59,803 nucleotides of DNA, from contig DXIF01000103.1 in NCBI GenBank assembly GCA_019113025.1, forward strand, positions 1 through 59,803, in the 5' to 3' direction. Source of the DNA: Candidatus Anaerobiospirillum stercoravium (GTDB taxonomy: Bacteria > Pseudomonadota > Gammaproteobacteria > Enterobacterales > Succinivibrionaceae). Both the position numbers and the translations under genes were made by a program. The notes under the pieces were generated by a model. That model did no database searches. It was not told the origin of the DNA and saw nothing but the letters and a program-made list of their open reading frames with translations. Below, one piece after another: positions 2,958-13,791 of the stretch; position 1 is the first letter of the stretch; every line of letters starts with the position of its first letter.

Positions 2958-6423
<3,466 letters not shown>

Positions 6424-6739: not shown

Positions 6740-7534
6740 ATGATCAAAGATAGTACCAATCAAGAGCTCAGTGTCTTTGAAGCGATTGGCTTTTTAGGTA
6801 CGGGGCTAAAGCTGGCTTTGTCCCCCCAGTGCCGCTTGTTTGTCATTATTCCCATCATCATCAACATTATTGTGCTCACCGCCGGTGGCTACTTTGTTTT
6901 CACCTCGATTAAGGGCTTTTTAAGCGAGTACCTTAACGTCTTGCCCGAGTGGCTGTCCTTTTTAAGCTACATCCTGTGGTTTATCTTGCTGTGCACGGTG
7001 GGCTTTGTCTTTTGCTACATCTTCTCGACCGTGGCCACCATCATCGCCTCGCCTTTTTACGGCATTCTCGCCGAGAAAGCGGAAGGCTTAATTCGCGGGG
7101 CGCCCTTTGCCGCAGGTTCTGATGACAGTATCGCGGCCATCATCAAGGACGTACCGCGCATCATCAAGCGTGAATTGCAGAAAATGGGCTTTTATCTGCC
7201 GCGCGTGCTGCTGTGCCTCATCATCACCGCAATTCCGGTGGTCAATGTGGTCGCTCCGCTGTGCTGGTTCTTGCTGGCCGCATGGATGATGTCGGTGCAG
7301 TACTGCGACTACGCCTACGATAATCACAAGATTGCCTTTGCTGAGATGCGCCATGACTTAGGCTTGCATCGCCTGTGCACCTTTGGCTTTGGGGCGGTTA
7401 TCGCCTTTGCTATGACCATTCCTCTGCTTAACTTGCTCATTCCGCCGGCCGCGGTTTGTGCTGGTACCAAGTACTACGTCGCCATGCGCGAGCGCTACAC
7501 CTTAGATGGCGCGCTGCGCCTCAACCAATCATAG
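6740..7534 (+). CDS. cysZ: Sulfate transporter CysZ / EI24-domain membrane protein
   Basis: IIASPFYGILAEKAE, KDVPRIIKRELQK, QYCDYAYDNHKI, IPPAAVCAGT motifs; divergent from zipA as in enterobacteria. Confidence 0.93.
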   Translation: MIKDSTNQELSVFEAIGFLGTGLKLALSPQCRLFVIIPIIINIIVLTAGGYFVFTSIKGFLSEYLNVLPEWLSFLSYILWFILLCTVGFVFCYIFSTVATIIASPFYGILAEKAEGLIRGAPFAAGSDDSIAAIIKDVPRIIKRELQKMGFYLPRVLLCLIITAIPVVNVVAPLCWFLLAAWMMSVQYCDYAYDNHKIAFAEMRHDLGLHRLCTFGFGAVIAFAMTIPLLNLLIPPAAVCAGTKYYVAMRERYTLDGALRLNQS

Positions 7535-7647: not shown

Positions 7648-9627
7648 ATGTATTCCCTATCAGGCATTACGGTGTCAGAAGGCGTCAGTGAAGGGCGGGC
7701 CTTTCTGCTTATTCCCCGCTCACGCGAAGACGTAGTTGAGGTTGGTACCGTGCTCAATCCGGGCGAGGAAATTGCCAAGTACAAGCGCGTCAGCCGCGAA
7801 TTTGCCGCGATGCTCAATAACGCGATGGCGGGTACGGTGCCCGACAAGGTGCGCGACCTCTTTGGAGCGGTCGCCGCCTATATCACCAATAGTGACAATA
7901 CCCGCGCGATTGAATTGCAAATTGAGCTGGGCAAGTCCGCCGCTGAGGCGGCGCACAGCGTGCTCTTGCCCAAGATTGTGCGCTTAAGCCAGCCCACGGT
8001 GGAACTAAGTCCTAAGGCCCGGGCGCCCGAGCGCAGCGCCGCTGCAACTGATGGTGCCTGTGCCGTGGCAACTGATGGTGCCTGTGCCGTGGCAACTGAT
8101 GGGGCAAGGGGCGCGGGCGACGGCTCATGCTCGACCTGTGAGGCCTTAGAGCACAGCACGGCGTCAGGAGCTATGCGGGAGCTGCCGGTAGCGGATGTGC
8201 GCATGCGCGCGCTTAAGGACAGTGCCGAGCTGGCGCTTAATCCTGAGGTGCTGGCCGCGCAAGCGGTTCAAGTGGCGACTCGCGCGCAGCTTGATGATGA
8301 CGCCAGCGAAATGCAGGTGGTTGCCAACGAGCTCAACCTCTTGATGCGCGACTTCATCAGCACCATCAATCTCAACAAATTGGCCAATGAGGATCTGCCC
8401 CAGCTCTCTGAGCCGAGCGTCATCATTGCCACCGATTTAACTCCGGCCAGTTTCCTCTCGCTGCACACCGAGCTGGTGCGTGCGGTGGTGCTCGAAGATG
8501 GCGAGGCTTCAGGGCACTTAGCCACAGTGCTGCGCGACCTATGTATCCCGGCCATTTATGGGGTCAAGGGCGCGCTTACCATTGCCCAAGGTGAGCATGT
8601 GCTGGTTGATGCGACTCATGGTTCGATCTTGGTTGAGCCGCCCAAGGACGCAGCGCGGGCCTTAATTGCGCAGCAAGGGCGCTTTGATGAGAGCGAAGAG
8701 GGCGACGACAACGATTGCGTCATGACCGTGGCGGGGTCAATGGGTGCCATGGGACCTGCGGGCGCTTTAGAGCGCTTTGCCCGTTATCTGCACCAGGGCT
8801 TGGGGCTGTTGCGCTCGGAGTTCTTGTTTTTGAACTATCACCATGAGCCCAGCATCACGGAGATGACCCGGGCTTTTGCTGAGGTCTTCACCAAGATTCC
8901 TAAGGGTGCCCCGCTCACGGCGCGCACCTTTGACTTCGCGGGCGACAAAAAGCCGCTCTTTACCTTGGAGATGGATGATCATGGGCCGCTGCGCAAATAT
9001 GGGGCGCAAGTAGGCTCGGGCCTGTTAAAAAAGGAGCTCAAGGCGCTGCTCCTAGCCTCGGTGGGCCGAGACATCAACATTGTGTTCCCGCTGATCACGC
9101 GCTGCAGCGAAGCCAAGACGCTCAACAATCTGCTGGCGCAAAGTATTGACGAGCTTTTAGCCGAAGGCCGGGAGATCGGCAATGCACACGTGGGCCTGAT
9201 GATTGAGACTCCCGCGGCCGTGCTGTCGGCGCGCGCCTTTGCCGCCTTTGGCGAGATGTTTTTAATCGGGACCAGTTCGCTTGCGGAGTACGCCGCGGCG
9301 CCGCGGCCGCCGGAGGAGTACTTTACCCCGGCGCTAGCGAAGATGATTGCCATTGCGTGCAAGGCCGCGCATACCGAAGGGGTCCAAGTGGGCGTTGCGG
9401 GGCGCTTTGCGATGCGCATTGAGCTGTTGCCTTTCTTCCTGGCCTTAGGCGTCACCTATCTCACCACCGATGCTACGGCCTTACACAAGGTCAGAAAGGA
9501 GTTGCAGCGCCTGCAAGACCAAGGCTACAGCGCGCACTTTGATAGCAAGCTCTATCATGCGGTGATGGATTTGGCTTCAGCTCACGATTTACAGCGGCTG
9601 CTGTTCCACGACGAATTTTCGTTCTAA
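7648..9627 (+). CDS. ptsI: PTS enzyme I-like protein with degenerate PEP-binding domain
   Basis: SGITVSEGVSEGRA N-terminus, IIATDLTPA, His-domain motif GEASGHLATVLRDLCIPAIYG, GLGLLRSEFLF, RTFDFAGDK, GLMIETPAA; canonical GTND reads GTSS and GMCGE reads GVAGR. Confidence 0.8.
   Translation: MYSLSGITVSEGVSEGRAFLLIPRSREDVVEVGTVLNPGEEIAKYKRVSREFAAMLNNAMAGTVPDKVRDLFGAVAAYITNSDNTRAIELQIELGKSAAEAAHSVLLPKIVRLSQPTVELSPKARAPERSAAATDGACAVATDGACAVATDGARGAGDGSCSTCEALEHSTASGAMRELPVADVRMRALKDSAELALNPEVLAAQAVQVATRAQLDDDASEMQVVANELNLLMRDFISTINLNKLANEDLPQLSEPSVIIATDLTPASFLSLHTELVRAVVLEDGEASGHLATVLRDLCIPAIYGVKGALTIAQGEHVLVDATHGSILVEPPKDAARALIAQQGRFDESEEGDDNDCVMTVAGSMGAMGPAGALERFARYLHQGLGLLRSEFLFLNYHHEPSITEMTRAFAEVFTKIPKGAPLTARTFDFAGDKKPLFTLEMDDHGPLRKYGAQVGSGLLKKELKALLLASVGRDINIVFPLITRCSEAKTLNNLLAQSIDELLAEGREIGNAHVGLMIETPAAVLSARAFAAFGEMFLIGTSSLAEYAAAPRPPEEYFTPALAKMIAIACKAAHTEGVQVGVAGRFAMRIELLPFFLALGVTYLTTDATALHKVRKELQRLQDQGYSAHFDSKLYHAVMDLASAHDLQRLLFHDEFSF
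8044..8102 (+). repeat. 24-bp coding tandem repeat (ATDGACAV x2.5) in a ptsI insertion
   Basis: gcaactgatggtgcctgtgccgtg x2 + gcaactgatgg. Confidence 0.9.
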
Positions 9628-9729
9628 CCACCACGCTAACGCAAGCGGTACTTGGTAATGACCTAGGCGTTACTTGGTGACAACCTGCCACCTCGGTGGC
9701 ACCCAGCTCACGTGCGATAGGGGAAAGTA

Positions 9730-10293
9730 ATGGGATTTTTCTCTTCCTTGTTTAAGCGTAACTCAGATCACCACGAGCTCAGTGACAGCTCAGGGCGCAA
9801 GAGCGCGCCTAACGTCACTCCGGCCAATGCTGACGTCACGCTCTATGCGCCGGTGACGGGCACCTTACTGCCCTTAGAGGAGGTGCCGGATATTGTCATC
9901 TCCGAAAAGGTGATGGGTGAGGGCGTGGCGGTGGTGCCGGATAGTGAGAGCATTGTTGCCCCCTGTGATGGCGTGATTAGCCGTCTCTTGCCGACTAAGA
10001 ATGCCTTTGCGGTGCGCATGGACAATGGTCTTGAAATATATGTCAGCTTTGGGGTCGAGTCGATGGAGCTGCGCGGCGAGGGCTTTGCCACCAAGGTCGC
10101 CTTAGGCGATCAGGTCAAGCGCGGCGATCCGGTGCTGCAAACCGACACGCGTCTTATCGCCAGCCGCATCAAGTCCCCGATCACCTCGATGATCGTGATT
10201 AAGAGCTCAGGCAAAATCGCCAAGGTCACCAATGCCTCCGGCAAGTGCAATGCCGGTTTAAGCCCGGTGGTCTGGATTTCCTTGGCGCAATAA
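9730..10293 (+). CDS. crr: PTS EIIA-Glc (Crr)-like protein lacking the active-site histidines
   Basis: MGFFSSLF amphipathic N-terminus, YAPVTG..LEEVPD..SEKVMGEGVA..VAPCDG, MELRGEGF..GDQVKRGD; TKNAF and IYVSFG in place of TNHAF and LFVHFG. Confidence 0.85.
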   Translation: MGFFSSLFKRNSDHHELSDSSGRKSAPNVTPANADVTLYAPVTGTLLPLEEVPDIVISEKVMGEGVAVVPDSESIVAPCDGVISRLLPTKNAFAVRMDNGLEIYVSFGVESMELRGEGFATKVALGDQVKRGDPVLQTDTRLIASRIKSPITSMIVIKSSGKIAKVTNASGKCNAGLSPVVWISLAQ

Positions 10294-10627: not shown

Positions 10628-12130
10628 TTAGATGTTGGAGACGATTTCTTCCACCGTCTTCTTGGCATCGCCAAAGCACATGAACGAATTGTCCTTAAAG
10701 AACAATGGGTTCTGCACGCCGGCGTAGCCTACGTTCATCGAACGCTTGAAGACAACGACGTTGCGAGCCTTCCAAACCTCTAATACTGGCATGCCCGCAA
10801 TTGGGCTATTTGGATTTTCTAAGGCTGCTGGGTTTACCGTGTCGTTAGCGCCAATGACCAGTACGGTATCAGTATTCTCGAAGTCCTCGTTGATCTCGTC
10901 CATCTCAAATACGATGTCGTATGGTACCTTGGCCTCAGCTAAGAGCACGTTCATGTGACCTGGCAGACGACCGGCGACTGGGTGAATGGCAAAGCGCACC
11001 TCAATGCCACGCTCCTTTAACTTCTCAGTTAACTGAGCAACCGCATTTTGTGCCTGCGATACCGCCATACCATAGCCTGGGGCGATGATGACCGAAGAAG
11101 AGTTCTTTAACAGATCTGCAACTTCATTGGCCTTTAACTCATGGTACTCGCCCATCTCCTCGTCGCCTTGAGCTGCGCCACCTTCGGTGCCGAAGCCGCC
11201 AGCGATAACCGAGATAAAGGAGCGGTTCATGGCCTTACACATGATGTAAGACAGAATCGCACCTGAAGAGCCGACTAATGCGCCGGTGACGATTAACAGG
11301 TCGTTGGAGAGCATGAAGCCCGATGCTGCGGCGGCCCAACCAGAGTAGGAGTTCAGCATCGAGATGACGACCGGCATGTCCGCGCCACCGATGGCAGCAA
11401 CTAAGTGCACACCAAAGGCGAAGGCGATTAAGGTCATCAGGATTAATGGCACCACCGATGGGGAGGCCATGAACCAGATGAGTAAGAGGACCGAAGCGAC
11501 TAAAGCAGCTAAGTTGAGCCAGTGGCCGCCTGGTAACATTAAAGGAGCGCTCTTGAAGACGCGCAGCTTGTAGGTGCCGTTGAGCTTGCCGTAGGCAATG
11601 ATGGAGCCGGTGAAGGTGACCGCACCAATGAAGATGCCTAAGAAGATCTCAACTAAGTGAGTGTTGAACTCACCTGGGGTCATGGCGGCGGCGTGCTCGG
11701 TTACGGCCTCAGCAGCTTGCTTGGCGGCATCCATCATGGCAACGATGGTGGCCTGCGAAGCATCAAGTGGAACCGTAATCGAATCTGGAACGATGGCGCC
11801 TAACTCTAAGAACGAGTTGTAGCCTACTAAGACGGCGGCTAAACCGACAAAGGAGTGTAGGCACGCAATCATCTCAGGCATCTGAGTCATTGCGACGCGC
11901 CGGGCGACAAAGATACCGATACCGGCGCCAATGCACATGGCAACGACAATCAGTAAGAAGCCCGTGGCGCTACCTACTTGGGCAAAGGTGGCCAGTAAGG
12001 CAATGGTCATACCGACCATGCCCGATAAGCAACCATACTTAGCAGTTTCTTGCTTGGATAGACCGGCTAGGGCAATGATAAAGAGCAGTGCGGCCAAAAT
12101 ATAGGCCATGTGTATAGGACCTGCTACCAT
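10628..12130 (-). CDS. pntB: NAD(P) transhydrogenase subunit beta
   Basis: [76 protein letters not shown]. Confidence 0.98.
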
Positions 12131-12157
12131 TTTCTAAATTCTCCTGATCCTCAACTT

Positions 12158-13693
12158 TTACTGCTGTTTCTTGAACATGGCCAGCATACGGCGCGTTACC
12201 GCGAAGCCACCGAAGATATTGATCGAGGCAATCAGAACGCCGATGAAGGAGAAGGCGGCGATGATTGGGCTGGACGAGCTGATTTGCAGCAGTGCGCCCA
12301 CCACGATAATACCGGAGATCGCGTTGGTAACGGACATTAATGGGGTATGCAGAGAGTGGGTAACATTCCAAACCACGTAGTAACCGACCACGCACGCTAA
12401 GACGAAGACGGTGAAGTGTGGTAAGAACTTCTCTGGAGCATACAGGCCAATCAAGGCAAAGGCGACAATCAGGATACCCACTAAGGTGGCCTTAAAGCGT
12501 GGGGAGACCTGACGCTGCTCAACCTTCTTAGGAGCCTCAGCTTTAGTTGGAGCAGGAGCGGCCGAGACCGAGATCTTAGGTGGTGGGAAGGTAATCTCGC
12601 CATCACGGGTGACGCACATATTGCGTAAGATCACGTCCTCAAAGTCGACGTTGATGGAGCCATCCTTGTTTGGGCTGAGCAGCTTGGTTAAGTTAACCAA
12701 GTTGGTGGAATACAGCTGAGAGGATTGAGCGGGCAGACGGCACGCTAAATCGGAGTAGCCGATGATCTTGACGCCGTTTTCGGTAGTGGTGATCTTGCCC
12801 TCAACCGTCAGCTCGCAGTTACCACCGGTGGCGGCGGCGAGGTCGACGATGACCGAACCTGGCTTCATGCTCGCGACCATCTCCTTGGAGATGAGGCGCG
12901 GAGCAGGCTTACCTGGAATGGCCGCGGTGGTGATGATGATGTCGACATCCTTGGCTTGAGCGGCAAAGAGCTCCATCTCCGCCTTGATGAACTCATCAGA
13001 CATGACCTTGGCATAGCCGTCGGACGAGCCGCCTTCCTCATTCTTAAAGTCGAGCTTTAAGAACTCACCGCCCATTGACTTGATTTGGTCGGCAACCTCA
13101 AGACGGGTATCAAAGGCGCGGACAATGGCACCTAAGGAGTGAGCCGCACCAATGGCAGCAAGACCGGCGACACCGGCGCCAATGACTAAGACCTTGGCCG
13201 GTGGTACCTTACCTGCGGCGGTAACCTGACCGGTAAAGAAGCGACCGAAGGTGTGGGCAGCTTCGATGACGGCACGATAGCCTGAGATATTGGCAGTCGA
13301 GGAGAGCGCGTCTAAAGCTTGGGCACGGGAAATTCGTGGCACCATGTCCATCGCAAGGACGGTGACCTTCTTTTCCTTTAACTTCTCGACTAAGTCAGGG
13401 TTCTGTGCTGGGCGAATAAAGCTGACCAGAGTCTGGCCTTCTTTTAAGAGCTTGATCTCGTCGTCGGTAGGTGCATTGACCTTGTAGATAATGTCGCTCG
13501 ACCAAACCTCACGGCCACGTAAGACCTTGGCACCAGCGGCGGTATAGGCGGCGTCATCAAAGCTAGCATCGGCACCAGCATTGGTCTGAACAGCAACCTC
13601 AAAGCCCAACTTGATGAGCTTGGTTACGGTATCAGGAGTGGCAGCCACTCTTGTTTCGCCTTTCAAGCTTTCTTTTGGAATACCTATCAGCAT
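12158..13693 (-). CDS. pntA: NAD(P) transhydrogenase subunit alpha
   Basis: Start taken at ATG 13693 ([17 protein letters not shown]); [50 protein letters not shown]. Confidence 0.98.
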
Positions 13694-13791
13694 GGCTTCT
13701 TCCCGTAAAATTCCCAAAAACTAATCCTTGCTCTTAGCCTAGGTACGCCATGTTACCTAGGCAAGCTCGATCCATGTTAAGGCGCGCCCGT

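What the first reader, a model, noticed from the sequence alone, without database searches (positions are those of the whole stretch)
7648..10293. Catalytically dead 'pseudo-PTS' module: EI + EIIA-Glc kept intact, phosphotransfer residues lost, no HPr
Seen: at the conserved zipA/cysZ-(cysK-ptsH)-ptsI-crr locus, only 113 bp separate cysZ from ptsI, so cysK and ptsH are absent here. Both remaining ORFs are full length without stops or frameshifts. In the Crr homologue, the positions of E. coli His75 (TNHAF) and phospho-acceptor His90 (LFVHFG) read TKNAF (Asn91, nt 10000-10002) and IYVSFG (Ser106, nt 10045-10047), keeping the 15-residue spacing; the membrane-anchoring N-terminal helix (MGFFSSLF) is retained. 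In EI the His-domain histidine is kept (SGHLA), but GTND reads GTSS (9268-9279), GMCGE reads GVAGR (9391-9405) and the ENPFLGWR motif is gone. Established: these residues are needed for Mg-PEP binding and phosphotransfer, and unphosphorylated EIIA-Glc is the form that binds and regulates partner proteins. Inference: this is a co-degenerated, selected pseudoenzyme pair acting as a protein-interaction or ligand-sensing module, locked in the 'dephospho' state or re-purposed to Ser phosphorylation.
Basis: partly seen in the sequence, partly recalled or inferred. Interest (0 to 1): 0.85.

Follow-up and report, generated by a model that had tools for sequence, protein, structure and literature searches.

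The report
Dead sugar-relay pair kept as regulator
A group of gut bacteria (Anaerobiospirillum, Succinatimonas, Succinivibrio) keeps, under strong purifying selection, two sugar-uptake (PTS) proteins that have lost the residues known to pass phosphate, and the pair likely now works as a regulator, most likely of the enzyme that makes cAMP.

Summary
The window holds the native ptsI-crr pair of an Anaerobiospirillum-like Succinivibrionaceae genome. The altered EI (EI*) occurs in 68 of 71 genomes of eight genera and in 0 of 27 other family genomes. None of 53 altered Crr (Crr*) sequences has His90. All 52 EI* sequences lack Asn454, Asp455 and Cys502, yet keep His189, Arg296, Arg332, Lys340 and Glu431. 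dN/dS is 0.01-0.16, so these are not decaying pseudogenes. The EI tree shows a 2.35-substitution stem followed by slow change.

The genome is not HPr-less. A Bacillota-like, catalytically complete EI is present, and a His-bearing orphan HPr has the same clade range as EI* (68 of 71 versus 0 of 27). Phospho-Ser is not general, because position 90 can be Thr, Ser, Arg, Lys, Asn, Gly or Val.

Class I adenylate cyclase (94 of 98 genomes) gains two near-invariant motifs in its regulatory half only in this clade. Best guess (40%): Crr* is a locked adaptor on the cyclase and EI* is the phosphate-state reader. FrsA is a close rival target. Binding is untested.

The parts
7648..9627 (+). EI*: native ptsI orthologue, 659 aa, with all three EI domains and a remodelled PEP site
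   Evidence: Pfam PF05524 (23.9 bits, just under its 24.4 cut-off), PF00391 and PF02896; PDB alignment; AlphaFold model pLDDT 75 whose best matches are EI structures; TIGR01417 score 159.8, below the 341.7 cut-off
8515..8517 (+). His290 (E. coli His189, the phospho-acceptor), retained
   Evidence: 52 of 52 EI* sequences; codon checked
8812..8814 (+). Arg389 (E. coli Arg296), retained together with Arg426 (Arg332), Lys434 (Lys340) and Glu520 (Glu431)
   Evidence: each 52 of 52
9268..9279 (+). GTSS in place of GTND (Asn454 to Ser, Asp455 to Ser)
   Evidence: Ser-Ser in 52 of 52 EI*; Asn-Asp in 11 of 11 sister-lineage EIs
9391..9405 (+). GVAGR in place of GMCGE (Cys502 to Ala, Glu504 to Arg)
   Evidence: Ala 51 and Val 1 of 52; Arg 49 of 52
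7993..8292 (+). Approximate low-complexity insertion in the helical (HPr-binding) subdomain, with a short repeated ATDGACAV unit
   Evidence: alignment; low pLDDT; length variants in other samples' contigs
9730..10293 (+). Crr*: native crr (EIIA-Glc) orthologue, 187 aa, without His75 or His90
   Evidence: PF00358; PDB alignment; orthologue alignments
10000..10002 (+). Asn91 at the His75 position
   Evidence: Asn 34, Ser 9, Thr 8, His 2 of 53
10039..10047 (+). Tyr104-Val105-Ser106: new invariant Tyr (E. coli Phe88), and Ser at the His90 position
   Evidence: Tyr 53 of 53; His 0 of 53 at position 90, against 18 of 18 in other family lineages
6740..7534 (+). cysZ, the upstream gene; within 20 nt of the EI* start in most relatives
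   Evidence: PF07264; 41 of 56 locus rows have 20 nt or less, some genomes counted twice
2958..6423 (-). ligA and zipA, synteny markers of the native ptsHI-crr locus
10628..13717 (-). pntB and pntA, downstream synteny markers shared with the sister lineages
   Evidence: names from my reading of the sequences

Best explanation
This is the native enzyme I / EIIA-Glc pair of one Succinivibrionaceae clade, kept under purifying selection after losing His90, Asp455 and Cys502, and it likely works as a regulatory module on class I adenylate cyclase (CyaA): Crr* would sit on the cyclase's regulatory half as a permanently unphosphorylated adaptor, and EI* would be the switch that reads the cell's PTS phosphate state through its retained His189 and Arg/Lys pocket. 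Shown: the residue pattern, purifying selection, clade range, a separate complete EI and HPr, and new CyaA motifs in the same clade. Inferred from established chemistry: EI* cannot use Mg-PEP normally and Crr* cannot be His-phosphorylated. Inferred and untested: binding to CyaA, binding between EI* and Crr*, and loading of His189 by back-transfer from the imported phospho-HPr (or a conformational response to PEP-like anions). Confidence that the pair is a selected non-transport module is about 0.85; the number given below is for this specific mechanism.
For: (1) Selection. ptsI* dN/dS is 0.014-0.143 in 17 of 20 within-clade pairs (2 saturated; 1 near-identical pair gave 0.31). crr* is 0-0.164 in 19 of 20 pairs (1 saturated). 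cysZ, zipA and ligA from the same loci are similar. (2) Burst then stasis: a stem of 2.35 substitutions per site to a single EI* clade, sister to the family's less altered native EI (quick tree). (3) Not for transport: the glucose-class EIIB domain was found in 22 of 98 family genomes and in 1 of 44 in the largest genus. Crr* is the only EIIA-Glc domain in, for example, G017 (97% complete) and G109 (95%). (4) A phosphate donor exists. The other EIs keep all catalytic motifs, and the two tested score higher against Bacillota than E. coli structures (Atlas neighbours Bacillota). The orphan His15 HPr is in 68 of 71 clade genomes and 0 of 27 others. (5) The target exists: CyaA in 94 of 98 genomes, with its DxD motif intact in G000, and an intact-looking CRP in G000. 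(6) CyaA gains two blocks, IE[YF]AITxxD (E. coli about 405-414) and MRPE[FY]xxQ[VI]P (about 720-730), in 31 of 31 clade sequences and 0 of 20 others. Clade-specific columns are 24 of 93 conserved columns in the regulatory half against 7 of 114 in the catalytic half, Fisher p about 1e-4. (7) The old HPr-binding helix of EI* carries new invariant residues (Asp66, Arg69, Asn84), which suggests a retained docking site. (8) An independent family (f19) has His90-less orphan Crr in 5 of 5 genomes, with CyaA in 5 of 5 and FrsA in 0 of 5. (9) Literature, passages read: only phospho-EIIA stimulates the cyclase, though EIIA is complexed with it (PMC6877527), and an uncharacterised extra factor is needed (PMC2405797). 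A His-less Crr therefore needs another switch.
Against: All the clade correlations rest on one evolutionary event. Control proteins also show many clade-specific columns (CysZ 18 of 61, ZipA 18 of 52, with only 6-7 outgroup rows). Rate covariation over 17 genomes does not single out CyaA: Crr* correlates with FrsA 0.71, the EI* C-domain 0.71, the EI* helical domain 0.70, the CyaA C-half 0.63 and the control ZipA 0.51. FrsA, a known partner of unphosphorylated EIIA-Glc, is kept in 93 of 98 genomes. In locus L106, crr* follows cysZ with EI* missing and no EI* was found in that genome (86% complete), yet its CyaA keeps both motifs. Two f6 genomes have a divergent orphan Crr (one of them His-less) with no class I CyaA found, and families f14, f15, f16 and f30 have CyaA with no EIIA-Glc domain found. 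The residue after His189 is Leu or Ile, not a small residue, and Thr168 is replaced, which may impair phosphorylation of His189.
Confidence: 0.4

Rival explanations
1. Crr* is a constitutive 'dephospho' effector of FrsA (or of transporters and glycerol kinase), fixing these anaerobes in the fermentative state. EI* would modulate or sequester Crr*, or act separately.
For: Unphosphorylated EIIA-Glc stimulates FrsA, and H91A is used as a dephosphomimetic (PMC6877527 passages). FrsA is in 93 of 98 family genomes. Crr*-FrsA has the joint-highest rate covariation, 0.71. G000 also has GlpK, MalK, MelB-like and LacY-like genes. Crr* persists without EI* in L106.
Against: FrsA shows few clade-specific columns (8 of 82, scattered), although the Crr* surface changed (Phe41 to Ile, Lys69 to Arg, Phe88 to Tyr). 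The independent His-less Crr family f19 lacks FrsA (0 of 5). It does not explain the invariance of EI* His189.
Confidence: 0.25
2. EI* is still an enzyme with new chemistry. It would use a different phosphoryl donor that needs no general acid (for example an acyl phosphate), or act as a phosphate sink or phosphatase for phospho-HPr, and pass phosphate to or from a new partner. Crr* would be a scaffold.
For: His189, Arg296, Glu298, Arg332, Asp335, Asp339, Lys340 and Glu431 are each 52 of 52, and the replacements are themselves invariant (Ser-Ser 52 of 52, Arg504 49 of 52) rather than drifting. The long stem followed by stasis fits neofunctionalisation.
Against: Mutations at C502, E431 and D455 strongly impair EI (PMC13598208 passage). 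Arg358, which contacts the phosphoryl group, is deleted and both dimer-interface loops are shortened (PMC5537066 passage; alignment). The fold search returned EI, PPDK and PEP synthase at the top, not another enzyme class.
Confidence: 0.2
3. The pair regulates or senses for the co-transcribed membrane protein CysZ (for example anion or sulfate sensing).
For: cysZ and ptsI* are within 20 nt in 41 of 56 locus rows. The EI* pocket gains an Arg and loses two acidic residues.
Against: The adjacency follows from deletion of cysK and ptsH at an ancestral locus. The gap is 99-440 nt in Anaerobiospirillum loci. CysZ rates do not covary with Crr* (-0.23) or the EI* domains (-0.57 to 0.08).
Confidence: 0.07
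4. Crr* has switched from His to Ser/Thr phosphorylation at position 90.
For: Ser or Thr in 43 of 53 sequences; Thr also in 4 of 5 f19 orphan Crr proteins.
Against: 10 of 53 have no hydroxyl there (Arg, Lys, Asn, Gly, Val) although the EI* motifs of the clade are uniform. The position lies in a beta-strand, where Thr is common (my inference).
Confidence: 0.05
5. Decaying pseudogenes left over after a foreign PTS took over.
For: A replacement EI and HPr exist; EI* is missing at one locus (L106).
Against: Open frames across eight genera; dN/dS far below 1; dozens of invariant columns.
Confidence: 0.02

Closest known systems
Enterobacterial ptsH-ptsI-crr (EI, HPr, EIIA-Glc) controlling class I adenylate cyclase, FrsA and inducer exclusion
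   Same: Same locus (ligA-zipA-cysZ-ptsI-crr), same folds, and the same candidate targets in the genome.
   Different: No ptsH or cysK at the locus; no His75 or His90 in Crr; no Asn454, Asp455, Cys502 or Arg358 in EI. The signal cannot be phospho-His90.
Sister Succinivibrionaceae lineages (genera g5, g7, g10, g11, g14), an apparent intermediate stage
   Same: Native EI already lacks Arg358 (11 of 11). The locus HPr lacks His15 in the 4 loci where it is found and was not found in the others examined.
   Different: They keep GTND, CGE and Arg465 (11 of 11) and Crr His90, and lack the imported orphan HPr (0 of 27 non-clade genomes) and the new CyaA motifs.
Nitrogen PTS (PtsP, NPr, PtsN), a regulation-only PTS
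   Same: PTS parts used without a permease, for regulation (PMC2405797 passage).
   Different: PTS-Ntr keeps a working phosphorelay, and PtsP has an N-terminal extension (about 750-775 aa). A separate ptsP is present in G000 and forms its own branch.
Engineered dephosphomimetic EIIA-Glc (H90A/H91A)
   Same: An unphosphorylatable EIIA-Glc that acts as a constant effector (PMC6877527 passages).
   Different: Here it is natural and clade-wide, with a remodelled binding face and a co-evolved EI*.
Orphan His-less Crr in other families of the same order (f19, part of f6; found here)
   Same: Independent loss of His90 with the gene kept.
   Different: EI and HPr are gone from those loci rather than remodelled. 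The EI* profile scores above 800 bits only in this clade; the best hit outside the family is 257 bits among 301 genomes searched.

Membership tests
PTS enzyme I (PtsI, TIGR01417) | Helical, His-swivel and PEP-binding barrel domains | tested here: met
   (the N-terminal Pfam hit is just under its cut-off)
PTS enzyme I (PtsI, TIGR01417) | Phospho-acceptor His189 | tested here: met
   52 of 52
PTS enzyme I (PtsI, TIGR01417) | Glu431 and Asp455 (Mg ligands; role recalled, importance in PMC13598208) | tested here: not met
   Glu kept 52 of 52; Asp is Ser in 52 of 52
PTS enzyme I (PtsI, TIGR01417) | Cys502, Asn454 and Arg358 | tested here: not met
   Ala or Val, Ser and a gap in all 52
PTS enzyme I (PtsI, TIGR01417) | Score above the curated cut-off of 341.7 bits | tested here: not met
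   159.8 (window) and 198 (L081); sister-lineage EI 381; imported EIs 538 and 556
PTS enzyme I (PtsI, TIGR01417) | PEP-dependent autophosphorylation and transfer to HPr | not testable with these tools
   needs a bench assay
EIIA-Glc (Crr) | EIIA_1 fold and position after ptsI | tested here: met
   PF00358 126.6 bits; TIGR00830 112.5 above 97.5; PRK09439 138.5 below 212; synteny
EIIA-Glc (Crr) | Phospho-acceptor His90 | tested here: not met
   0 of 53
EIIA-Glc (Crr) | His75 | tested here: not met
   2 of 53
EIIA-Glc (Crr) | N-terminal amphipathic membrane helix | tested here: inconclusive
   An MxFFSxLF-type start is conserved; membrane binding was not tested
EIIA-Glc (Crr) | Binds adenylate cyclase, FrsA or permeases | not tested
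Nitrogen PTS enzyme I (PtsP) | N-terminal extension and PtsP branch | tested here: not met
   PRK11061 90.5, far below 583; a separate PtsP clade
Pseudogene | Stops, frameshifts or dN/dS near 1 | tested here: not met

The most novel reading that the evidence does not exclude
A carbon-signalling circuit rewired by swapping roles. After importing a Bacillota-like EI and HPr, this clade turned its native enzyme I from a phosphate writer into a phosphate reader that docks directly, without HPr, on a His-less EIIA-Glc adaptor and a co-evolved adenylate cyclase. Phospho-His189 of EI* then replaces phospho-His90 of EIIA as the cAMP switch.
Probability: 0.2. Interest if true: 0.88.

Novelty: new variant of a known kind. 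Interest (0 to 1): 0.7.

Why it matters
The PTS-to-cAMP link is a textbook circuit, yet how EIIA-Glc activates class I adenylate cyclase is unresolved. A sequence search found no solved class I cyclase, a fold search found nothing significant, and an extra factor has been postulated (PMC2405797). This clade is a natural experiment in which the phosphorelay residues were removed but the proteins were kept, and it marks two cyclase loops as candidate docking sites. It is also a pseudoenzyme pair that automatic annotation would call a working glucose PTS in common gut and rumen bacteria, including Succinatimonas hippei (L081) and the succinate producer Anaerobiospirillum succiniciproducens (L111). 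Metabolic models of these organisms would be affected.

Tried and rejected
Complex prediction gave no verdict: the queue was full for both EI* with Crr* and CyaA with Crr*, so no binding was modelled.

Expression is not shown. Four RNA-library runs held as contigs were laid on the locus. Contigs cover parts of ptsI* in all four and crr* in X14 and X18. X14 is flat across the whole stretch and may be DNA. cysZ was uncovered in three runs, which proves nothing.

The promoter and terminator scan was at chance level (1 promoter-like site against 1.5 expected; 5 terminators against 4.4).

Rate covariation first favoured the CyaA C-half but lost its specificity once controls were added. Domain-wise stem lengths in CyaA had weak support.

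A fold search of the CyaA model (pLDDT 86) found nothing at E below 0.001. Coordinates are not returned, so I could not check whether the two CyaA motifs are neighbours in space.

The EI tree is the quick search, and the tool flagged long branches. Orthology therefore rests mainly on synteny. No Bacillota sequences were in the tree, so the foreign origin of the second EI is inferred, not shown.

Ten literature searches returned no description of this pair in their listings. The library lacks most subscription papers. A review I wanted for cyclase Asp414 and EIIA surface mutants is not held, so the regulatory role of Asp414 is recalled only. PMC4434415 was irrelevant.

Four look-ups of earlier scan findings returned nothing.

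Among the 150 best representative proteins, 146 of 158 aligned domains kept His90. The exceptions were clade members, three fragments and a few scattered proteins I did not follow up.
Full report
Observation. The window is contig C48 of genome G000. It encodes ligA and zipA on the minus strand, then cysZ, a 659-aa enzyme I homologue (EI*, 7648-9627) and a 187-aa EIIA-Glc homologue (Crr*, 9730-10293). E. coli has the same order with cysK and ptsH between cysZ and ptsI; here the gap is 113 bp. Alignment to solved structures confirms His75 to Asn and His90 to Ser in Crr*, and GTND to GTSS and CGE to AGR in EI*. E. coli numbers below are for the mature EIIA; one search counts the first Met, so its numbers are one higher. 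An AlphaFold model of EI* (pLDDT 75) best matches EI structures.

Range. The closest named loci are Anaerobiospirillum (83-85% identity), followed by Succinatimonas, Succinivibrio and Avisuccinivibrio records. Among 98 family genomes, EI* matches at E of 1.4e-84 or better in 68 of 71 genomes of eight genera and in 0 of 27 genomes of nine other genera. The three misses are 81-89% complete. In a sample of 301 genomes of the order, the EI* profile scores above 800 bits only in that clade, 288-313 bits in sister lineages of the family, and at most 257 bits elsewhere. I examined residues in 52 distinct EI* and 53 distinct Crr* sequences taken from the loci fetched, not in all 68 genomes.

What is lost and what is kept. 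Crr* has His at position 90 in 0 of 53 sequences (Thr 29, Ser 14, Arg 4, Lys 3, Asn 1, Gly 1, Val 1), against 18 of 18 in other family lineages. Its face has new fixed residues: Ile for Phe41 (53 of 53), Tyr for Phe88 (53 of 53) and Arg for Lys69 (51 of 53). EI* keeps His189, Arg195, Arg296, Glu298, Arg332, Asp335, Asp339, Lys340 and Glu431 in 52 of 52. It replaces Asn454 and Asp455 with Ser-Ser (52 of 52), Cys502 with Ala (51) or Val (1), and Glu504 mostly with Arg (49), and it deletes Arg358. Mutations at C502, E431 and D455 strongly impair EI (PMC13598208, passages read). Arg358 contacts the PEP phosphoryl group, and the two loops that are shortened here form the dimer interface (PMC5537066, passages read). 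That Cys502 is the proton donor and Asp455 a Mg ligand is recalled knowledge. Normal PEP chemistry is therefore very unlikely, but the phospho-acceptor and the cationic half of the pocket are still under selection.

Selection and history. Nei-Gojobori dN/dS is 0.014-0.143 for ptsI* (17 of 20 pairs; 2 saturated; 1 near-identical pair gave 0.31) and 0-0.164 for crr* (19 of 20; 1 saturated). cysZ, zipA and ligA from the same loci are similar. A quick maximum-likelihood tree of 44 proteins puts EI* on a 2.35-substitution stem, sister to the family's other native EIs; the tool warns about long branches. The sister lineages look like an intermediate stage. Their EI keeps GTND and CGE but has lost Arg358 (11 of 11), their Crr keeps His90, and the HPr at the locus lacks His15 in four loci and was not found in the others examined. 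Other lineages keep crr without ptsI beside it, next to threonine-synthesis genes in four of the loci seen. An EIIA-Glc domain is found in 97 of 98 family genomes, whereas a glucose-class EIIB is found in 22 of 98. Crr is therefore being kept for something other than transport.

The replacement relay. G000 has a crr-ptsI-ptsH operon on C211, a second EI on C174, a PtsP on C259 and an orphan HPr on C64. All 11 such second EIs examined keep the four catalytic motifs. The two tested score higher against Staphylococcus than E. coli EI (organisms of those entries and recall), and the Atlas neighbours of one are mostly Bacillota. The orphan HPr is found in 68 of 71 clade genomes and 0 of 27 others at E of 1e-18, the same clade range as EI*. 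Five genomes checked each carry a long fructose-class EIIA-containing protein and a stand-alone mannose-class EIIA, which this relay could serve. Import and remodelling thus map to the same branch, but that is a single event.

Candidate targets. Class I CyaA is in 94 of 98 genomes, and G000 has its catalytic DxD motif and an intact-looking CRP. In the clade, CyaA carries two near-invariant blocks that are variable elsewhere: IE[YF]AITxxD, ending at the invariant Asp414, and MRPE[FY]xxQ[VI]P in the C-terminal domain (31 of 31 against 0 of 20; also in G000). That Asp414 matters for EIIA-dependent activation is recalled and could not be checked. Clade-specific columns are enriched in the regulatory half (24 of 93 against 7 of 114, p about 1e-4), but CysZ and ZipA give similar fractions with fewer outgroup rows. 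Both blocks fall in or beside lower-confidence loops of a CyaA model. FrsA is equally widespread (93 of 98) with few clade-specific columns (8 of 82). Rate covariation across 17 genomes links Crr* to EI* (0.66-0.71), FrsA (0.71) and the CyaA C-half (0.63), but also to ZipA (0.51); it does not link Crr* to the CyaA catalytic half (-0.01) or CysZ (-0.23). It does not decide between targets. In E. coli, unphosphorylated EIIA stimulates FrsA, only the phosphorylated form stimulates the cyclase, and EIIA is complexed with the cyclase (PMC6877527, passages read; PMC13353551 and bioRxiv 10.1101/2022.06.06.495059, passages read). An additional uncharacterised factor has been invoked (PMC2405797, passages read).

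Independent cases. In a sample of 131 genomes of the order, family f19 has one divergent Crr in 5 of 5 genomes, all without His90 and without ptsI or ptsH beside them. All 5 have CyaA and none has FrsA. In f6, 3 of 6 genomes have a divergent orphan Crr, two of them His-less; only one of the three has a (shortened) class I CyaA. Four families have CyaA with no EIIA-Glc domain found. His-less Crr has therefore arisen more than once and fits CyaA better than FrsA, but imperfectly. Within the clade, locus L106 has crr* directly after cysZ and no EI* was found in that genome, so Crr* can persist alone.

Mechanism. Shown: a selected, clade-wide pair without the residues for PEP use or His90 phosphorylation, alongside a separate complete EI and HPr and a remodelled cyclase. 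Inferred: Crr* is a constant adaptor on CyaA, and EI* supplies the variable signal through His189 (loaded backwards from the imported phospho-HPr) or through ligand-driven closure. I give this 0.4. Rivals are a locked FrsA or inducer-exclusion effector (0.25), new EI* chemistry (0.2), a CysZ link (0.07), Ser/Thr phosphorylation (0.05) and decay (0.02). No binding was modelled or measured.

Novelty. These are homologues, not functional members, of PtsI and Crr: defining catalytic features were tested and not met. Ten searches of the open-access library (listings only) showed no description of the pair. Subscription papers and all supplements were not seen. I rate it a new variant of a known kind, interest 0.70: the pseudo-relay itself is solid and surprising, while its output is still a hypothesis.

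Noticed in passing
L268-L272 (family f19), L273 and L275 (family f6): Orphan, His90-less crr homologues with ptsI and ptsH gone from the locus, next to a dapE-like gene and, in f19, cysK. An independent origin of a pseudo-EIIA-Glc.
   Followed up: partly
L112:4306-4569, L117:5687-5950, L118:4004-4321, L123:7041-7325: ptsH at the native locus of sister lineages encodes a full-length HPr without His15. These genomes have another His-bearing HPr-like gene elsewhere (for example L192).
   Followed up: partly
G000:C51:5836-9690: Adenylate cyclase of 1284 aa with long low-complexity insertions; open frames of 1317-2314 aa in the same genus against about 830 aa in the rest of the family.
   Followed up: partly
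L352-L356 (G000:C127 and relatives): Melibiose-permease-like transporters apparently fused to a fructose/nitrogen-class EIIA domain, seen in several clade genomes; the transporter family is my reading of the sequence.
   Followed up: no
L342-L346 (G000:C135): Stand-alone 135-aa mannose-class EIIA (DhaM-like, His kept) in 5 of 5 genomes checked, with no obvious dihydroxyacetone kinase genes within 1.5 kb.
   Followed up: no
G000:C262:1372-1860; L357-L360, L364-L366: A further His-bearing stand-alone EIIA-Glc gene, often inside a sugar ABC-transporter, transketolase-like and kinase operon; a possible local inducer-exclusion device.
   Followed up: no
window 8048-8100: Short tandem ATDGACAV repeat in the EI* insertion; contigs from other samples lack up to 24 nt here, in frame.
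   Followed up: no
G000:C211:21641-28465: Gene cluster that reads like a type VI secretion locus (my reading of the translations, not tested).
   Followed up: no
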